A stretch of DNA of 42,858 nt from Escherichia phage Halfdan. Numbering within the stretch: the first letter of the stretch is position 1; the number at the start of each line of letters is the position of its first letter. The position numbers and the translations under genes are program-made. This document shows, one piece after another, positions 24,655 through 33,917 of the stretch. The stretch lies in sequence record NC_072811.1, one strand, 5' to 3'. The notes beneath the pieces are model-generated. The model did not search any database, was not told the origin of the DNA, and saw only the letters and a program-made list of their open reading frames with translations.

Positions 24655-25257
24655 TTACAGGGTACGCCACACGCCCGCGCCCTTGACGCCGGGGAAGCCC
24701 CACGGTGCGCCGTCTTCGACGGTGCGAACGGCGAATTCGCGAATCTGGCGGGTAGCCGGAACGACGTTGCCTTTCGCCGGGGATTTCTTCGGCGCGGGGA
24801 TTTCTTCGGCGTAACGTTCGTTGGCGCTGGTGACAGTGGAAGCCAGCGACTTCGCCGGGTTCGGCTTGGCTTCGGTCGCGGCCACGAAGAACGATTGCCC
24901 TTTTTCCAGCTTGTCGAACGGGTAAGTTTCGGTCGAACGGCCGCCACGGGAAGCGCCCGGCATGGCAACGTCGGCGACAATTGCGAAGTTCGATGCGACG
25001 GCCGGTGCGGCGGAAGCGCCTTCGGTGCCGGTGTTCTGGTTGGTGTTCTGTTCGTTCATAGCTGCGATGCCCTTTTCGGTTGCACGGGTAGCGAAGTCGC
25101 CCCCTTCGTTGGTGATGGTTTCGTTCTGTTCGACCAGACCTTCGGCGACCAGAACTTTCGCGGCCTTGGCGGAAGCGAAGGCGTAACCGGCGTCGCCGGT
25201 AGTTGCGGTAACGATGGCGGCCAGCAGTTCCGAAGCCGCTTTGTTCAGTTTAGCCAT
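24655..25257 (-). CDS. hypothetical protein, independently transcribed
   Basis: 200 aa from ATG 25255-25257 with AAGGAG SD; own TTGACG-N17-TAGAAT promoter and downstream hairpin terminator. Confidence 0.55.
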   Translation of the reverse strand: MAKLNKAASELLAAIVTATTGDAGYAFASAKAAKVLVAEGLVEQNETITNEGGDFATRATEKGIAAMNEQNTNQNTGTEGASAAPAVASNFAIVADVAMPGASRGGRSTETYPFDKLEKGQSFFVAATEAKPNPAKSLASTVTSANERYAEEIPAPKKSPAKGNVVPATRQIREFAVRTVEDGAPWGFPGVKGAGVWRTL

Positions 25258-25325
25258 TTTGAAAACTCCTTGCAAGTAAGTTCTTCGTTTGTCCCCGACG
25301 AACCATTCGGCGGGGTACGTGTTGA

Positions 25326-25949: not shown

Positions 25950-26139
25950 CCCCTGTACCGGTAATTGTTTCGGTCTTGGTTACGACCGCCCGCAACGCCG
26001 GGTATTCGGTGCGGCCGATAGGCGTTACGTCTATCGTTTCATATTCGACATTGTATCCGCCTTCGGCGATTTCGGCAACCATTTCGTTAACGGCGTTGAT
26101 ACGGCGGTTAAGTTCGGCAACCTTTGCGTTAATGTTCAT
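25927..26139 (-). CDS. hypothetical protein
   Basis: 70-aa ORF; stop-start overlap with dCMP deaminase gene. Confidence 0.35.
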   Translation of the reverse strand: MNINAKVAELNRRINAVNEMVAEIAEGGYNVEYETIDVTPIGRTEYPALRAVVTKTETITGTGVDNENES

Positions 26140-26597
26140 TCTTCGCCCCTTGTTACGATAAGTTTAACGCCCGCTTCTTTGAACATCGAAACGGCAATAT
26201 CTAAGTGTTCGTCGTATGCAAGCCGGTTGCCCACATATTCAGCGACGACGCGTTTAACGCCGCTTTGAATGATGGCCCCGGCGCAAACCGGGCACGGCGT
26301 CAACGGCGTTACGAACAGCGTACAACCGACAAGCGATTCGCGGCTGTTTAGTATAGCGTTCAATTCGGCGTGTACGGTGCGCGGGTACTTCTGCGCCCGG
26401 TCGTTCAACCGGGATTCAGTATCGGCCACGCCACGCGGAAAGCCGTTGTAACCGAACGATACCGGGCTGTTATCCGGCCGTGCAATGAACGCACCAACCT
26501 TCGTCGAAGGGTCTTTCGATTTGGTGCGAACAGTGCGGGCCAACGACAGGTAGAACCGTTCCCATTCGGTAAGGTCTTCGTACCGACGTTCAATCAT
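26136..26597 (-). CDS. dCMP deaminase (cytidine/deoxycytidylate deaminase family)
   Basis: 153 aa; zinc-binding HAE and PCxxC motifs (VHAELNAI, TPCPVCAGAI). Confidence 0.8.
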   Translation of the reverse strand: MIERRYEDLTEWERFYLSLARTVRTKSKDPSTKVGAFIARPDNSPVSFGYNGFPRGVADTESRLNDRAQKYPRTVHAELNAILNSRESLVGCTLFVTPLTPCPVCAGAIIQSGVKRVVAEYVGNRLAYDEHLDIAVSMFKEAGVKLIVTRGEE

Positions 26598-27001
26598 CGT
26601 TTCGACTCCTTTTCGTTGTCCAGATACAACAACGCTTCGTGTCGGTCAATCTTGCCGGTCGCGTCGCAGAAGTCGCAGTCGAACCAGTCGCCGGGGCTAA
26701 TTTCGACGCCCTGTACGCCTTTGCATTTCGGGCACGTTACGGCTTCGGCTTCGTGTGAGTAATCCGGCCCGTAAAAGTTCTTGATTACGTCGTCAGGGTT
26801 GCCGCCTGCGGCCATGTAACCGCGTGCGTATTGTGCGGCATCCGTAACCGGCATGTAACCGTCGCAGATTGCGCAAGTTACCTTTTGGCCTAACTGATAC
26901 GGCGGCGGGCCAACGTCGAACAGATGGCGCGGGCACGCGTCCAGCTTGCGGCGGTTTTCCTTGATAGCGGCGAACAGTGCGGCCGATTCTTGCTTGTTCA
27001 T
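26594..27001 (-). CDS. cysteine-rich zinc-ribbon protein
   Basis: 135 aa; three CxxC(x)G motifs (CAICDG, CPKCKG, CDFCDATG). Confidence 0.45.
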   Translation of the reverse strand: MNKQESAALFAAIKENRRKLDACPRHLFDVGPPPYQLGQKVTCAICDGYMPVTDAAQYARGYMAAGGNPDDVIKNFYGPDYSHEAEAVTCPKCKGVQGVEISPGDWFDCDFCDATGKIDRHEALLYLDNEKESKR

Positions 27002-27225
27002 TTCGTCAACTCCTTAATAAGATGCGGCGTATAAGGCGACAGCTTGGACGCCCGAAATATACCCTTGCACCAACATTCGCCGTTCGCTTCAATTCCGACG
27101 TAATAGCTTTCGCCATAGTCGGCCGACAGCTTCGCGGCGATTTCTTGCGGCGTCCATTTCAAAGCCAAAAGGGCCGTAGCTTTCGCCTTGGCCCTTATGA
27201 GTTCGCATCGCAAACAGTTAATCAT
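26998..27225 (-). CDS. hypothetical protein
   Basis: 75 aa from ATG 27223-27225; upstream part of the track ORF is an Arg-rich out-of-frame overlap. Confidence 0.35.
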   Translation of the reverse strand: MINCLRCELIRAKAKATALLALKWTPQEIAAKLSADYGESYYVGIEANGECWCKGIFRASKLSPYTPHLIKELTK

Positions 27226-27520
27226 AATCGTAAAAGTCCGGTTCGTAATCCGGTTCGCGTAACGATTCGTTGTATCCGAATTCGCCCGGCCCGGCCTGTT
27301 CCAGTTTATCCGCGATGACCGCCAGCCCTTTCGGCAAGTTGTCGTAATCGACTTCTTCGCCGTCAATGGTAAACACGCCTTCCGATGCTTCGGATTCTTC
27401 CGGGTAGCAGTTTTCCGGCGCACCCCAAAGACGGGCGGGAGTGACCGACAGAACGTAAGTGCATTCAAGAATGCGGCCGTCGGTCATTTCGAAAGAAGTG
27501 GTTACGTCGTATGCTGGCAT
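27218..27520 (-). CDS. highly acidic small protein (candidate DNA mimic)
   Basis: 101 aa from ATG 27518-27520; about 24 Asp/Glu against 5 Lys/Arg. Confidence 0.45.
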   Translation of the reverse strand: MPAYDVTTSFEMTDGRILECTYVLSVTPARLWGAPENCYPEESEASEGVFTIDGEEVDYDNLPKGLAVIADKLEQAGPGEFGYNESLREPDYEPDFYDYD

Positions 27521-27539
27521 GATTGCGGTTCCTGTTTCG

Positions 27540-27707
27540 TTATCCGATGAACAGATTATACGCCGACGCAACGACGAATGCAACACCCCCAAAGCCGATA
27601 ACCATTGCGATAACGGTTTCGACAATCGACGGGCCTTTGCGGTTGCGCGGCGGCACTGAAAAGGTGCGCAAGTTCTGGTCGGCGATGCGTTCGGCGTGAA
27701 TGTTCAT
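27540..27707 (-). CDS. small membrane protein
   Basis: 55-aa ORF below the track cutoff, translated by hand (MNIHAERIADQNLRTFSVPPRNRKGPSIVETVIAMVIGFGGVAFVVASAYNLFIG); C-terminal TM helix. Confidence 0.3.
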   Translation of the reverse strand: MNIHAERIADQNLRTFSVPPRNRKGPSIVETVIAMVIGFGGVAFVVASAYNLFIG

Positions 27708-27716
27708 TTTGAACCC

Positions 27717-27923
27717 CTATGCTTGGTTGTAGTTCCGATAAAAGTAATAACCCTTATCGTCGTTGCCGAACGTCCAACCGTAAATGGAATGGGTGCGTTC
27801 GTCCAACTGTTCCGATTTTAAACCGGCCGCTTTCAGGTTGTCAAGGGCTTGTTTCAGCGTTTTAGCCGATTCAAGATGCGACCCGTTTTTCGCGATGCGG
27901 TCGTTATGCCGTTGTACCGTCAT
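27717..27923 (-). CDS. hypothetical protein
   Basis: 68-aa ORF. Confidence 0.35.
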   Translation of the reverse strand: MTVQRHNDRIAKNGSHLESAKTLKQALDNLKAAGLKSEQLDERTHSIYGWTFGNDDKGYYFYRNYNQA

Positions 27924-28519
27924 TGTTCCAACCCCAAATAGGTTACGATTGCGGCCCGCGCTTCAAGCCAGCCGTTGCAGCGAACAGCGGCGTAACCATC
28001 GGCCCGAAGTTCGGCAATGCGTTTCGCCTGTTCTTCCGACAGCGAACCGCCCTTAACCTTTTTCATTTCGATATACAGACCGCACAACATTTCGTGTTTC
28101 GGTTCGCTATCGCCGAAAAGGCGTTGCATGTAACCCATTGCGACAACAGGTTTCGGCAAGCATACGTCGGGAACGCCAACGCGCACGCCTTCGCCTTTCA
28201 GCATAGCGGCCGTTCGTGCGTCACGCTTACCGCCGTTCGGGATTGCGTACATTTTCGACAGGTCGGGCGCAATGCCGATATTAGCCATTGCGGCGGCCCA
28301 ACAGAACAACGCGGCTTGTTCGCCGTGTTCCGACTTCTGTATGCACAAGTCACGGGGAAGCGGGTTCGAACCAATCCATTCGCCTTGGAAGACGGCGGCC
28401 CGCGTGTGGCGTTCGTCGTTGGTTACGTCTTGCCAATCGGCATCGGCTTTCAATTCGGCCACGGTTGCGGCCAGATATACGCCAACCGATGCGTCGTACA
28501 GAAGATGCGTGCGTTTCAT
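27920..28519 (-). CDS. VRR-NUC domain nuclease
   Basis: 199 aa from ATG 28517-28519 (TAAGGGG SD); PD-(D/E)xK signature GVPDV...EMKKVKGGSLSEEQ. Confidence 0.6.
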   Translation of the reverse strand: MKRTHLLYDASVGVYLAATVAELKADADWQDVTNDERHTRAAVFQGEWIGSNPLPRDLCIQKSEHGEQAALFCWAAAMANIGIAPDLSKMYAIPNGGKRDARTAAMLKGEGVRVGVPDVCLPKPVVAMGYMQRLFGDSEPKHEMLCGLYIEMKKVKGGSLSEEQAKRIAELRADGYAAVRCNGWLEARAAIVTYLGLEQ

Positions 28520-28529
28520 GCGGTGCCCC

Positions 28530-28721
28530 TTACGGTAGATTGTGGCGGTCGCGGCAAGGTGCGCAAGCGCCATTGACAAGGCGGCCCGACCATTCGCCGC
28601 ACAAGTCGCATTCGCCGGGAACCCCGGCCGGTATTGCCTTCGCTTTCGCGGTAATCGCTGCGATTGCGTCGGCGGTTTCGATTTCGGTTCTTGCGTCGGT
28701 CATATCCACTTCGTCGGCCAT
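28530..28721 (-). CDS. small C4 zinc-ribbon protein
   Basis: 63 aa; CDLCGEW...CAPC; spacing between Cys pairs shorter than classical TraR/DksA fingers. Confidence 0.45.
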   Translation of the reverse strand: MADEVDMTDARTEIETADAIAAITAKAKAIPAGVPGECDLCGEWSGRLVNGACAPCRDRHNLP

Positions 28722-28754: not shown

Positions 28755-28778
28755 AGAAAGCCGGGAACTTGTCCCGGC
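28755..28778 (-). terminator. weak candidate terminator after gene 28792..29274
   Basis: 7-bp stem GCCGGGA/TCCCGGC with 5-nt loop, followed on the minus strand by CUUUCUG. Confidence 0.3.
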
Positions 28779-33293: not shown

Positions 33294-33917
33294 ATGACCC
33301 AACCCAAACCCTTCAACTATCAAGCGGAAGCCGTGCAAACCCTGTCGGCTTCGTTCTTTGGCGAATTCGTAAGCCGCGCCGAATTGCTTGGCGCACTGCA
33401 AGCGTTCAGCATCGCCGCCGCCCGGCTTGACGAAATCAAGAAACGCCTGTTCTACGGCCGCAACGTCGAAGCGATGCCGATGTTCGTTCCCGAAGAATCC
33501 ATCGAATCCAGCGAAATGCCTTGGACTTCGGCCGAAGAAACCATCGCGCACGCAATCATCGGCGTCGGCACCGAAGCGGGCGAACTGGCCGACGGTCTTA
33601 TCGCCGCACTGATTAACAAGTTCGGCGGCCAGCCTACCGGCTTCGACCTTGTGAACCTTGGCGAAGAAGGCGGCGACGTTCTTTGGTATCTGGCCGCACT
33701 GGCCCAAGGAACCGAAATCAGCATCGACGGTATGATGCGGGCGAACATCGCCAAACTTCGCAAACGCTACCCGAACAAGTTTACCGCATACGACGCGAAT
33801 AACCGCGACCTTGGCGGCGAACGCGACATTCTGGAATTGATGCAACCGAACTTGCCGGGTATCACTTCGCCGGATGCCGAATTGAAACATCGCATCGAAA
33901 GCGAAAAAGACGCTTGA
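33294..33917 (+). CDS. MazG-like nucleoside triphosphate pyrophosphohydrolase
   Basis: 207 aa; TEAGELAD and GEEGGDVLWYLAAL motifs. Confidence 0.7.
   Translation: MTQPKPFNYQAEAVQTLSASFFGEFVSRAELLGALQAFSIAAARLDEIKKRLFYGRNVEAMPMFVPEESIESSEMPWTSAEETIAHAIIGVGTEAGELADGLIAALINKFGGQPTGFDLVNLGEEGGDVLWYLAALAQGTEISIDGMMRANIAKLRKRYPNKFTAYDANNRDLGGERDILELMQPNLPGITSPDAELKHRIESEKDA

What the first reader, a model, noticed from the sequence alone, without database searches (positions are those of the whole stretch)
26136..28721. Accessory cluster combining dCMP deaminase, VRR-NUC nuclease and several zinc-ribbon proteins
dCMP deaminase appears here without a neighbouring thymidylate synthase and, together with the MazG-like enzyme at 33294, indicates that the phage alters dNTP pools. 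The VRR-NUC nuclease and at least two Cys-rich small proteins (26594..27001, 28530..28721) are tightly coupled to hypothetical genes. The combination could serve nucleotide-pool remodelling or a DNA modification or processing pathway, but I cannot assign one.
Basis: inference. Interest (0 to 1): 0.4.

Follow-up and report, generated by a model that had tools for sequence, protein, structure and literature searches.

The report
Ordinary phage accessory genes, not a pathway
This stretch of the coliphage Halfdan genome is a normal run of small early or middle genes: a dCMP deaminase, a Holliday-junction-type nuclease, a TraR-like zinc finger, a two-zinc-finger protein and four tiny unknown genes. 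These genes come and go independently in related phages, and nothing points to modified DNA.

Summary
Eight real, tightly packed minus-strand genes lie at 26136-28721, including a bona fide dCMP deaminase, a VRR-NUC nuclease and two proteins with conserved zinc ligands. The window is the published genome of Escherichia phage Halfdan.

The interpretation as a joint nucleotide-remodelling or DNA-modification pathway is not supported.
- No thymidylate-synthase homologue, dNMP kinase or transferase exists among the ORFs of 150 aa or more.
- A published metavirome survey found that a deaminase without a nearby thymidylate synthase is the norm for phages with canonical DNA (260 of 277 contigs).
- Across 6 isolates and about 15 metagenomic relatives, VRR-NUC is always present. 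The deaminase, the TraR-like gene, the zinc protein and MazG are gained or lost independently within one fixed gene order.

The best reading is four separate accessory functions:
- dUMP supply to the host ThyA.
- Resolution of branched DNA.
- Reprogramming of host RNA polymerase.
- An unknown protein-binding zinc protein.

One new detail emerged. The DnaJ-like zinc finger of the 135-aa protein just upstream of the deaminase is fused to the deaminase in at least 12 metagenomic protein clusters. This hints at a partnership. However, six lineages keep the zinc protein without any deaminase. Overall interest is low.

The parts
28760..28778 (-). GC-rich hairpin (GCCGGGA-caag-TTCCCGGC followed by TTTCTGCTATTCTG) in the 70-nt gap upstream of the 63-aa gene. 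It is a possible leaky terminator or transcript boundary.
   Evidence: Phage Loki has an annotated rho-independent terminator at the equivalent place, upstream of ORF41 and VRR-NUC. Its function here is inferred.
28530..28721 (-). 63-aa TraR/DksA-like zinc-finger protein, a truncated form. It has D3 and D6 near the N-terminus and C38xxC41-x11-C53xxC56, but no C-terminal helix.
   Evidence: PHROG 54 'DksA-like zinc-finger protein' at E 4.7e-8. D3, D6 and the four Cys are invariant in 5 homologues. There is no Pfam hit. TraR (PDB 5w1s) reaches only E 0.35 with the profile.
27920..28519 (-). 199-aa VRR-NUC nuclease of the PD-(D/E)xK type, probably a dimeric Holliday-junction or branched-DNA resolvase. 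About 50 N-terminal residues are extra compared with shorter relatives.
   Evidence: E64, D118, E151 and K153 are invariant in 54 sequences. The closest solved structure is psNUC (4qbl), an experimentally shown junction resolvase (PMC4103454).
27717..27923 (-). 68-aa basic protein of unknown function. It overlaps the VRR-NUC stop codon by 4 nt.
   Evidence: Homologues follow VRR-NUC in Pavpe01, Loki, IMEAB3 and L010.
27540..27707 (-). 55-aa protein with a hydrophobic C-terminal segment (residues about 29-55), probably membrane-anchored.
   Evidence: The sequence shows this directly. Homologues occur in Pavpe01 and L010. No family match was found.
27218..27520 (-). 100-aa strongly acidic protein (pI 4.05, 24 Asp+Glu against 5 Lys+Arg) of unknown function.
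   Evidence: PHROG 14000 at E 1.9e-42. pI. Present in Ab26 at 67% identity, absent from Pavpe01, Loki and phiAxp-1.
26998..27225 (-). 75-aa protein of unknown function. Only the N-terminal CxxC is conserved, so it is not a conserved Cys4 zinc ribbon.
   Evidence: PHROG 8564 at E 3.6e-22. Alignment.
26594..27001 (-). 135-aa two-domain zinc protein. The N-domain (residues 1-76) has a C23-x2-H26...C43-x2-C46 site. The C-domain (residues 88-120) is a DnaJ/Anti-TRAP-like finger, C90xxC93xG...C109xxC112xxxG. Its stop codon overlaps the deaminase start (ATGA).
   Evidence: PHROG 9844 at E 4.7e-32. Conservation. AF2 pLDDT 85. Only sub-threshold matches to Anti-TRAP and DnaJ. The C-domain is 64% identical (E 3e-16) to the N-terminal finger of fused zinc-finger-deaminase proteins.
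26136..26597 (-). 153-aa dCMP deaminase with G49-Y-N-G-F-P, H76-A-E78 and P101-C-P-V-C105.
   Evidence: It is 93% identical in protein to the L010 homologue although third codon positions are only 69.5% identical, which indicates strong purifying selection.
33294..33917 (+). 207-aa MazG-like NTP pyrophosphohydrolase.
   Evidence: Pfam PF03819 at 27.2 bits against a cut-off of 22. PHROG 229 at E 3.8e-42. The same slot holds a trimeric dUTPase in Pavpe01.

Best explanation
The region is the central part of one leftward (minus-strand) early or middle transcription unit of phage Halfdan. This unit runs from the primase gene to the lysis cassette. The region holds separate accessory functions rather than one pathway.

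1. **dCMP deaminase.** It converts dCMP to dUMP. Host ThyA then turns dUMP into dTMP, raising the dTTP supply for replication of ordinary, unmodified DNA. E. coli has no dCMP deaminase of its own. The catalytic machinery is shown; the flux and its benefit are inferred.
2. **VRR-NUC protein.** It is a psNUC-like dimeric junction-resolving nuclease. It clears branched replication and recombination intermediates before packaging. Those intermediates would be made by the phage's Cas4-like exonuclease, Sak4-like annealase and SSB, encoded on the other arm. The fold and catalytic residues are shown; the substrate is inferred from psNUC.
3. **63-aa protein.** It is a shortened TraR-like factor. It probably inserts its N-terminal D3/D6 helix into the secondary channel of host RNA polymerase and shifts host transcription, as lambda Orf73 does. 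This is inferred from the motifs.
4. **135-aa zinc protein.** It is a protein-binding adaptor with an unknown target. Its DnaJ-like finger may contact the deaminase.
5. **Four small ORFs** remain unassigned.

The tight spacing reflects ordinary phage operon compaction and translational coupling.
For: **Identity of the genome.** Protein P0001 is 100% identical to 'P7I17_gp32 [Escherichia phage Halfdan]' on a 42,858-bp contig. The window is 98.5% identical to phage Shy.

**Families.**
- Deaminase.
- VRR-NUC. psNUC binds and symmetrically cleaves four-way junctions (PMC4103454).
- TraR-like. D3/D6 and a C4 finger are the functional hallmarks of TraR and lambda Orf73 (PMC9239242).

**No modification enzymes.** The annotated Shy genome and Pfam scans of every unassigned ORF of 150 aa or more show no thymidylate-synthase homologue, kinase or transferase.

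**Independent presence or absence.**
- VRR-NUC is present in all relatives that cover that position.
- The deaminase is present in Shy, phiAxp-1, Ab26, L010-L016, L018, L019, L021 and L025. It is absent from Pavpe01, Loki, IMEAB3, L017 and L022-L024.
- The TraR-like gene is absent from Pavpe01, Loki, IMEAB3 and phiAxp-1. Apart from Shy and the Halfdan variant, its best database matches are in unrelated 41-62-kb Pseudomonas phages.
- MazG is replaced by a dUTPase in Pavpe01.

**Other support.**
- A deaminase without a thymidylate synthase is the usual state for canonical-DNA phages.
- dCMP-deaminase homologues occur in 2,677 phage records.
- Halfdan was sequenced from a Nextera XT library with no reported difficulty. 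This is weak evidence for canonical DNA.
Against: - No experiment exists on Halfdan DNA composition or on any of these proteins.
- The order TraR-like, VRR-NUC, zinc protein, deaminase is conserved over about 50% protein divergence where the genes are present. Some functional linkage therefore cannot be excluded.
- The zinc-finger-deaminase fusions argue that at least two of the genes are not fully independent.
- Four ORFs and the zinc protein have no assigned function.
- The TraR-like assignment fails Pfam and lacks the C-terminal helix.
Confidence: 0.7

Rival explanations
1. **Coordinated dNTP-pool remodelling.** The MazG-like enzyme would hydrolyse dCTP (or dUTP) to the monophosphate, and the deaminase would convert dCMP to dUMP. 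Together they would form a minimal T4-like dCTPase/Cd shunt that drains dCTP towards dTTP.
For: - Both enzymes are present.
- MazG/PRA-PH domains are among the five domains most often found next to phage dCMP deaminases.
- In Pavpe01 the MazG slot is filled by a dUTPase, which suggests the slot holds a pyrimidine dNTP pyrophosphatase.
- L010, L011 and L019 carry both genes.
Against: - The two genes lie on opposite strands, about 6.7 kb apart, in different transcription units.
- Loki and IMEAB3 have MazG without a deaminase, and Pavpe01 has neither. There is therefore no co-inheritance.
- The MazG substrate is unknown, and no solved relative was found.
- Genome G+C is 53.7%, so there is no special demand for T.
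Confidence: 0.2
2. **Zinc protein as deaminase partner.** The 135-aa zinc protein would be a dedicated partner (adaptor, regulator or assembly factor) of the dCMP deaminase. It would bind the deaminase through its DnaJ-like finger and tether it to another protein through its N-domain.
For: - The two genes overlap by ATGA.
- The same adjacency is seen in L010-L016, L021 and L025.
- The finger is fused in frame to the deaminase N-terminus in L018 and L019 and in 12 protein clusters of 62-100% identity from JGI, ENA and Logan.
- The Halfdan finger is 64% identical to the fused finger (E 3e-16).
- The nearest structural and sequence resemblances, Anti-TRAP and BSD2, are protein-binding fingers.
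Against: - Pavpe01, L022, L023 and L024 keep the finger motif intact with no deaminase. Loki and IMEAB3 keep the protein too.
- phiAxp-1 and cultured septimatreviruses have the deaminase without the finger.
- Fusion could be a by-product of adjacency. Other deaminases carry unrelated N-terminal extensions, such as P0100, P0104 and P0076.
- No complex model could be computed.
Confidence: 0.2
3. **DNA base modification or hypermodification pathway.** The deaminase would supply a precursor that the small ORFs elaborate.
For: Only the presence of a deaminase together with several genes of unknown function. dCMP-deaminase domains are enriched in cytosine-modified metavirome contigs.
Against: - There is no thymidylate-synthase-like hydroxymethylase or methylase, dNMP kinase, glycosyl- or amino-transferase, DpdA or similar gene anywhere in the genome.
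- The unknown ORFs are 55-135 aa, too small for such enzymes.
- 94% of deaminase-carrying canonical contigs lack a thymidylate synthase, whereas 70% of modified contigs have one.
- A close relative lacking the deaminase keeps the same DNA polymerase, primase and nuclease set.
Confidence: 0.03

Closest known systems
Stand-alone phage and cellular dCMP deaminases (Pfam PF00383; human DCTD 2w4l, 7fh4, cyanophage S-TIM5 4p9c, T4 Cd 1vq2)
   Same: Full-length similarity, the HAE and PCxxC zinc site, and the GYNG-x-P motif. As in most canonical-DNA phages, it occurs without a phage thymidylate synthase.
   Different: Allosteric regulation was not assessed. In relatives the enzyme can carry an N-terminal DnaJ-like zinc finger. 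I found no description of this in the literature searched.
psNUC (PDB 4qbl), the stand-alone VRR-NUC Holliday-junction resolvase of Psychrobacter (Pennell et al. 2014, PMC4103454)
   Same: Family profile E 5e-22. TM-score 0.74-0.78 normalised to psNUC. Same catalytic E, D and ExK residues. It includes the insertion between beta1 and beta2.
   Different: About 50-60 extra N-terminal residues fold as a small beta/alpha unit. They are absent from the 141-aa versions in L011, L013 and Ab26.
TraR of the F plasmid and lambda Orf73 (RNA polymerase secondary-channel regulators; PMC9239242)
   Same: A small acidic protein with Asp at positions 3 and 6 and a C4 zinc site. It is encoded by a mobile element among early genes.
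   Different: Position 8 is T/V rather than A. The Cys pairs are 11 residues apart rather than 17. No C-terminal helix. No Pfam PF01258 match. The PDB profile match to TraR reaches only E 0.35.
DnaJ-type zinc-finger proteins (DnaJ central domain, B. subtilis Anti-TRAP 2zp9, plant BSD2 8ilb)
   Same: A CxxCxG...CxxCxxxG hairpin pair. The weak Pfam, PHROG and Foldseek resemblances all point to this class.
   Different: All matches are below threshold. The protein has an extra N-terminal CHCC domain that exists alone in septimatreviruses.
T4 dCTPase (gp56) / dCMP deaminase (Cd) / thymidylate synthase (Td) / dCMP hydroxymethylase (gp42) network
   Same: A phage-encoded dCMP deaminase together with a nucleotide pyrophosphatase.
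   Different: There is no Td, gp42, dNMP kinase or glucosyltransferase. The pyrophosphatase belongs to a different family, has an unknown substrate and is not co-inherited with the deaminase.

Membership tests
dCMP deaminase (PF00383, ComEB/DCTD type) | Pfam model above the gathering score over the whole domain | tested here: met
   70.4 bits against a cut-off of 25, residues 11-119. PHROG 174 at E 1.1e-44.
dCMP deaminase (PF00383, ComEB/DCTD type) | Catalytic zinc site H-A-E ... P-C-x-x-C | tested here: met
   H76-A-E78 and P101-C102-P-V-C105 align to the same motifs of 2w4l and 7fh4.
dCMP deaminase (PF00383, ComEB/DCTD type) | Full-length similarity to enzymes solved as dCMP deaminases, including the GYNG-x-P nucleotide-binding motif | tested here: met
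   2w4l at E 1.3e-22 (residues 4-144) and 7fh4 at E 6.2e-21. GYNGFPRG aligns with GYNGMPNG.
dCMP deaminase (PF00383, ComEB/DCTD type) | Activity on dCMP rather than 5-methyl-dCMP, dCTP or polynucleotides | not testable with these tools
   Preference for 5mC is polyphyletic within this family and cannot be read from the sequence.
Anti-phage dCTP deaminase (NCBIfam NF041025 / PADLOC dCTPase) | Score above the curated cut-off, with the kinase-like N-terminal region | tested here: not met
   55.6 bits against a cut-off of 400. Only the zinc-binding core (residues 66-118) matches.
VRR-NUC (PF08774) junction-resolving nucleases | Sequence-family membership | tested here: met
   Pfam 24.4 against 23.8, only marginally above. 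A profile of 54 homologues hits psNUC (4qbl) at E 5e-22.
VRR-NUC (PF08774) junction-resolving nucleases | PD-(D/E)xK catalytic residues: Glu on helix 1, Asp, and Glu-x-Lys | tested here: met
   E64, D118, E151 and K153 are invariant in 54 sequences.
VRR-NUC (PF08774) junction-resolving nucleases | The VRR-NUC fold | tested here: met
   AF2 pLDDT 94.3 and pTM 0.89. Foldseek against 4qbl gives probability 1.00 and TM 0.74-0.78 normalised to the target.
VRR-NUC (PF08774) junction-resolving nucleases | Homodimer that cleaves four-way junctions symmetrically | not testable with these tools
   Shown for psNUC, stNUC and saNUC (PMC4103454). Inferred here.
TraR/DksA family (PF01258) | N-terminal DxxDxA motif with Asp at positions 3 and 6 | tested here: inconclusive
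   D3 and D6 are invariant in 5 homologues, but position 8 is T/V rather than A. Motif definition from PMC9239242.
TraR/DksA family (PF01258) | C4 zinc finger CxxC-17-CxxC | tested here: inconclusive
   The four Cys are invariant, but the spacing is 11 residues in Halfdan and 22 in the Ab26 homologue.
TraR/DksA family (PF01258) | C-terminal helix that contacts the beta-lobe Si1 insertion | tested here: not met
   Only 7 residues follow the last Cys.
TraR/DksA family (PF01258) | Significant sequence match to the family | tested here: inconclusive
   PHROG 54 at E 4.7e-8. No Pfam hit at E<=0.1. TraR (5w1s) reaches E 0.35 with a 5-sequence profile, aligned N-terminus to N-terminus.
DnaJ-type zinc finger (PF00684) / Anti-TRAP (PF15777) | Model above the gathering score; repeated CxxCxGxG | tested here: not met
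   15.0 bits against 32.7, and 16.8 against 32. The motifs are CxxCxGxxG and CxxCxxxG. Foldseek against Anti-TRAP (2zp9) gives E 0.39. This is a resemblance only.
Phage DNA hypermodification pathways (T4 hmC, Xp12 5mC, 5hmdU-derived) | Thymidylate-synthase-family pyrimidine hydroxymethylase or methylase | tested here: not met
   None is found among the ORFs of 150 aa or more or in the annotated near-identical genome.
Phage DNA hypermodification pathways (T4 hmC, Xp12 5mC, 5hmdU-derived) | dNMP kinase and group-transfer enzymes | tested here: not met
   None is annotated or detected.
Phage DNA hypermodification pathways (T4 hmC, Xp12 5mC, 5hmdU-derived) | Non-canonical base in virion DNA | not testable with these tools
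   Requires LC-MS. The only indirect evidence is an uneventful Nextera XT library.

The most novel reading that the evidence does not exclude
The 135-aa zinc protein may be a dedicated partner of the phage dCMP deaminase. Its DnaJ-like finger, which is fused to the deaminase in at least 12 metagenomic protein clusters, would dock on the enzyme. Its N-terminal CHCC domain would bind a second target, for example the replisome or a host nucleotide enzyme. Together they would form a minimal tethered dNTP-supply complex in a small siphovirus.
Probability: 0.2. Interest if true: 0.45.

Novelty: new member of a known kind. Interest (0 to 1): 0.2.

Why it matters
The value here is mainly negative. A dCMP deaminase without a thymidylate synthase, sitting beside a nuclease and zinc fingers, should not be read as a sign of modified DNA.

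This region is a variable accessory arm on a conserved backbone shared by Halfdan-, Loki- and Septimatrevirus-like phages.

The recurrent fusion of a small DnaJ-like zinc finger to dCMP deaminases is a cheap, testable lead on how small phages might regulate or localise a nucleotide enzyme. The 63-aa protein would be the shortest TraR-like factor if it proves active. Neither point changes current understanding.

Tried and rejected
1. **The 75-aa ORF as a third zinc ribbon.** Rejected, because its second Cys pair is missing in L010 and Ab26.
2. **Relaxed constraint on the zinc finger after loss of the deaminase.** Loki and IMEAB3 suggested this. It was rejected because Pavpe01, L022, L023 and L024 keep the motif without a deaminase.
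3. **Recent horizontal transfer of the deaminase between Halfdan and L010.** The protein is 93% identical against 55-77% for its neighbours. Rejected, because third codon positions are only 69.5% identical, similar to the flanking DNA, so the cause is purifying selection.
4. **PDB search with the 63-aa protein alone.** It gave only spurious aldolase hits.
5. **PADLOC scan.** It matched only the deaminase core to a defence dCTP deaminase.
6. **Foldseek of the zinc-protein model.** Against PDB there was nothing significant. Against BFVD there were only uncharacterised relatives.
8. **Literature.** There is nothing on Halfdan or Shy beyond the isolation paper and the taxonomy proposal. There is nothing on zinc-finger-deaminase fusions.
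9. **MazG-like enzyme.** It has no solved relative by sequence.

Full report
**What the window is.** The window is the complete genome of Escherichia phage Halfdan.
- The 135-aa protein is 100% identical to 'P7I17_gp32 [Escherichia phage Halfdan]' on a 42,858-bp contig.
- The isolation paper lists Halfdan (MH362766) at 42,858 bp and 53.7% G+C.
- The region is 98.5% identical to phage Shy and 97.4% identical to a 'Halfdan_Juelich_variant'.
- The annotated Shy genome shows the usual layout: a structural arm, a replication arm, and a third arm that runs from the primase through about 20 small genes to the lysis cassette. The replication arm holds the polymerase, clamp, helicase, Cas4-like exonuclease, SSB, Sak4-like annealase and MazG.
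- The finding lies in the middle of that third arm.

**Checking the observation.** All the genes lie on the minus strand. In order of transcription they are:
- a 63-aa zinc finger (28721-28530)
- VRR-NUC (28519-27920)
- ORFs of 68, 55, 100 and 75 aa
- a 135-aa Cys-rich protein (27001-26594)
- a dCMP deaminase (26597-26136)

From VRR-NUC through to the gene after the deaminase, five of seven junctions overlap by 4-8 nt and the other two are gaps of 9 and 19 nt. The 63-aa gene and VRR-NUC are separated by 10 nt. A 70-nt gap with a GC-rich hairpin precedes the 63-aa gene.

**The deaminase.**
- Pfam PF00383 scores 70.4 bits against a cut-off of 25.
- Human DCTD (2w4l) matches at E 1.3e-22 over nearly the full length. 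The GYNG-x-P, HAE and PCxxC motifs align.
- It is not the anti-phage dCTP deaminase: 55.6 bits against a cut-off of 400, with only the core matching.
- Against a metagenomic relative (L010) the protein is 93% identical, while neighbouring proteins are 55-77% identical. Third codon positions are only 69.5% identical. The enzyme is therefore under strong purifying selection and was not recently transferred.

**VRR-NUC.**
- The single-sequence evidence is marginal: Pfam 24.4 against 23.8, and 4qbl at E 0.006.
- A profile of 54 homologues hits psNUC (4qbl) at E 5e-22.
- E64, D118, E151 and K153 are invariant.
- The AF2 model (pLDDT 94) superposes on 4qbl with probability 1.0 and TM 0.74-0.78.
- psNUC binds four-way junctions with subnanomolar affinity and cuts them symmetrically (PMC4103454).
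- The phage encodes an exonuclease, annealase and SSB recombination set. A junction resolvase is therefore the natural reading.

**The zinc proteins.**
- *The 63-aa protein.* It matches PHROG 54, 'DksA-like' (E 4.7e-8). Asp3, Asp6 and four Cys are invariant. Asp3/Asp6 and a C4 finger are the functional hallmarks of TraR and lambda Orf73 (PMC9239242). However, the Cys spacing is 11 rather than 17, Ala8 is replaced, there is no C-terminal helix, Pfam finds nothing, and TraR reaches only E 0.35. I call it TraR-like, with membership unproven.
- *The 135-aa protein.* It has two conserved sites: C23/H26/C43/C46, and C90/C93/C109/C112. It folds confidently (pLDDT 85). It has only sub-threshold resemblance to DnaJ, Anti-TRAP and BSD2 fingers, and its viral relatives are uncharacterised.
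- *The 75-aa ORF.* It is not a conserved Cys4 protein.

**Is it a pathway?** Three lines of evidence say no.

1. There is no further enzyme. No thymidylate-synthase homologue, kinase or transferase exists among the ORFs of 150 aa or more. The unknown ORFs are 55-135 aa.

2. The absence of a thymidylate synthase is not unusual. In a metavirome association study, 70% of dCMP deaminases on cytosine-modified contigs had a thymidylate-synthase homologue within 3 kb. Only 6.1% (17 of 277) did so on canonical contigs (10.1101/2024.12.05.627091).

3. The genes are inherited independently. tblastn was run against whole genomes of Shy, Pavpe01, Loki, IMEAB3, phiAxp-1 and Ab26, and against 15 metagenomic loci.

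| Gene | Present | Absent or replaced |
|---|---|---|
| VRR-NUC | all relatives that cover the position | none |
| dCMP deaminase | Shy, phiAxp-1, Ab26, L010-L016, L018, L019, L021, L025 | Pavpe01, Loki, IMEAB3, L017, L022-L024 |
| TraR-like gene | Shy, Ab26, L010, L011, L013, L014, L016-L019 | Pavpe01, Loki, IMEAB3, phiAxp-1 |
| MazG | all other whole genomes, plus L010, L011, L018 and L019 | replaced by a trimeric dUTPase in Pavpe01 |

Apart from Shy and the Halfdan variant, the best database matches of the TraR-like gene are in unrelated 41-62-kb Pseudomonas phages. Where the genes are present they keep one order, but so does the rest of the genome. This is a conserved backbone with optional cassettes.

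**A new detail.**
- In two IMG/VR contigs (L018, L019) the DnaJ-like finger is fused in frame to the N-terminus of the deaminase.
- Twelve protein clusters of 189-198 aa, 62-100% identical and drawn from JGI, ENA and Logan, share this architecture.
- The Halfdan finger is 64% identical to the fused finger (E 3e-16).
- Together with the ATGA overlap and the recurrent adjacency, this is a Rosetta-stone hint that the finger works with the deaminase.

Against this:
- Six lineages keep the zinc protein with no deaminase, four of them with an intact motif.
- Cultured septimatreviruses and phiAxp-1 have the deaminase without the finger.
- Other deaminases carry unrelated N-terminal extensions.

I give the partnership a probability of about 0.2.

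**Most likely working.**
- The deaminase makes dUMP for the host ThyA. This is my knowledge of E. coli pyrimidine metabolism, since E. coli normally derives dUMP through Dcd and Dut.
- VRR-NUC resolves branched DNA before packaging.
- The 63-aa protein probably modulates host RNA polymerase.
- The zinc protein binds an unknown protein.
- The acidic 100-aa protein and the membrane-anchored 55-aa protein are unassigned.
- The catalytic and fold-level assignments are shown here. Substrates and physiological roles are inferred.

**Verdict.** Interest is low (0.2). The zinc-finger-deaminase fusion is the only lead worth a small follow-up.

Noticed in passing
window 33294-33917 (+) compared with L005 31579-32091 (-): The slot between the DUF7173 gene and the primase arm holds a MazG-like pyrophosphatase in Halfdan, Loki, IMEAB3, phiAxp-1 and Ab26. 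In the close relative Pavpe01 it holds a trimeric dUTPase (Pfam PF00692, E 5.6e-24). This looks like a non-orthologous swap and hints that the MazG enzyme handles a pyrimidine dNTP.
   Followed up: partly
L018 6977-7567 and L019 6977-7567; proteins P0064-P0071, P0073-P0075, P0080: These are single ORFs in which a DnaJ-like CxxC...CxxC finger is fused to the N-terminus of a Septimatrevirus-type dCMP deaminase. P0076 has a different, longer Cys-rich extension. P0100 and P0104 have hydrophobic N-terminal extensions instead.
   Followed up: partly
L010 8396-8857 compared with window 26136-26597: The deaminase is 93% identical in protein while flanking proteins are 55-77% identical. Codon positions 1, 2 and 3 are 91%, 97% and 69.5% identical. 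This indicates unusually strong purifying selection on the enzyme.
   Followed up: yes
window 24655-25275 (-): A 206-aa DUF7303 protein (Pfam E 1.2e-57) lies just upstream of the lysis cassette. It is conserved in every relative examined, including Loki, Ab26 and phiAxp-1. Its function is unknown.
   Followed up: no
window 27218-27520 (-): A 100-aa protein with pI 4.05 (24 acidic against 5 basic residues), PHROG 14000. It is shared with Ab26 at 67% identity but absent from the closer relative Pavpe01. An acidic early protein of this kind could be a DNA mimic or anti-defence factor. This was not tested.
   Followed up: no
window 36122-36637 (+): A further zinc-finger protein sits in the replication arm: DUF3268 'zinc-finger-containing domain', Pfam E 9.8e-35. 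It partly overlaps the start of the Cas4-like exonuclease gene.
   Followed up: no
GenBank PP954860.1 (hit H2): A 97.4%-identical 'Halfdan_Juelich_variant' is recorded with host Pseudomonas taiwanensis, whereas Halfdan and Shy were isolated on E. coli K-12. The nearest other relatives infect Pseudomonas, Acinetobacter and Achromobacter. This is either an unusually broad host range or a labelling issue.
   Followed up: no
window 27920-28579 (-): The mechanical ORF list gives a 219-aa TTG-initiated ORF that would overlap the 63-aa gene by 50 nt. The ATG at 28519, preceded by AAGGGG, matches the annotated start in Shy and the homologue lengths (197-203 aa).
   Followed up: yes
L011 3466-3822: A metagenomic relative carries a 118-aa gene with a peptide-chain-release-factor domain (PF00472 RF-1) in the accessory arm between the primase and VRR-NUC.
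   Followed up: no
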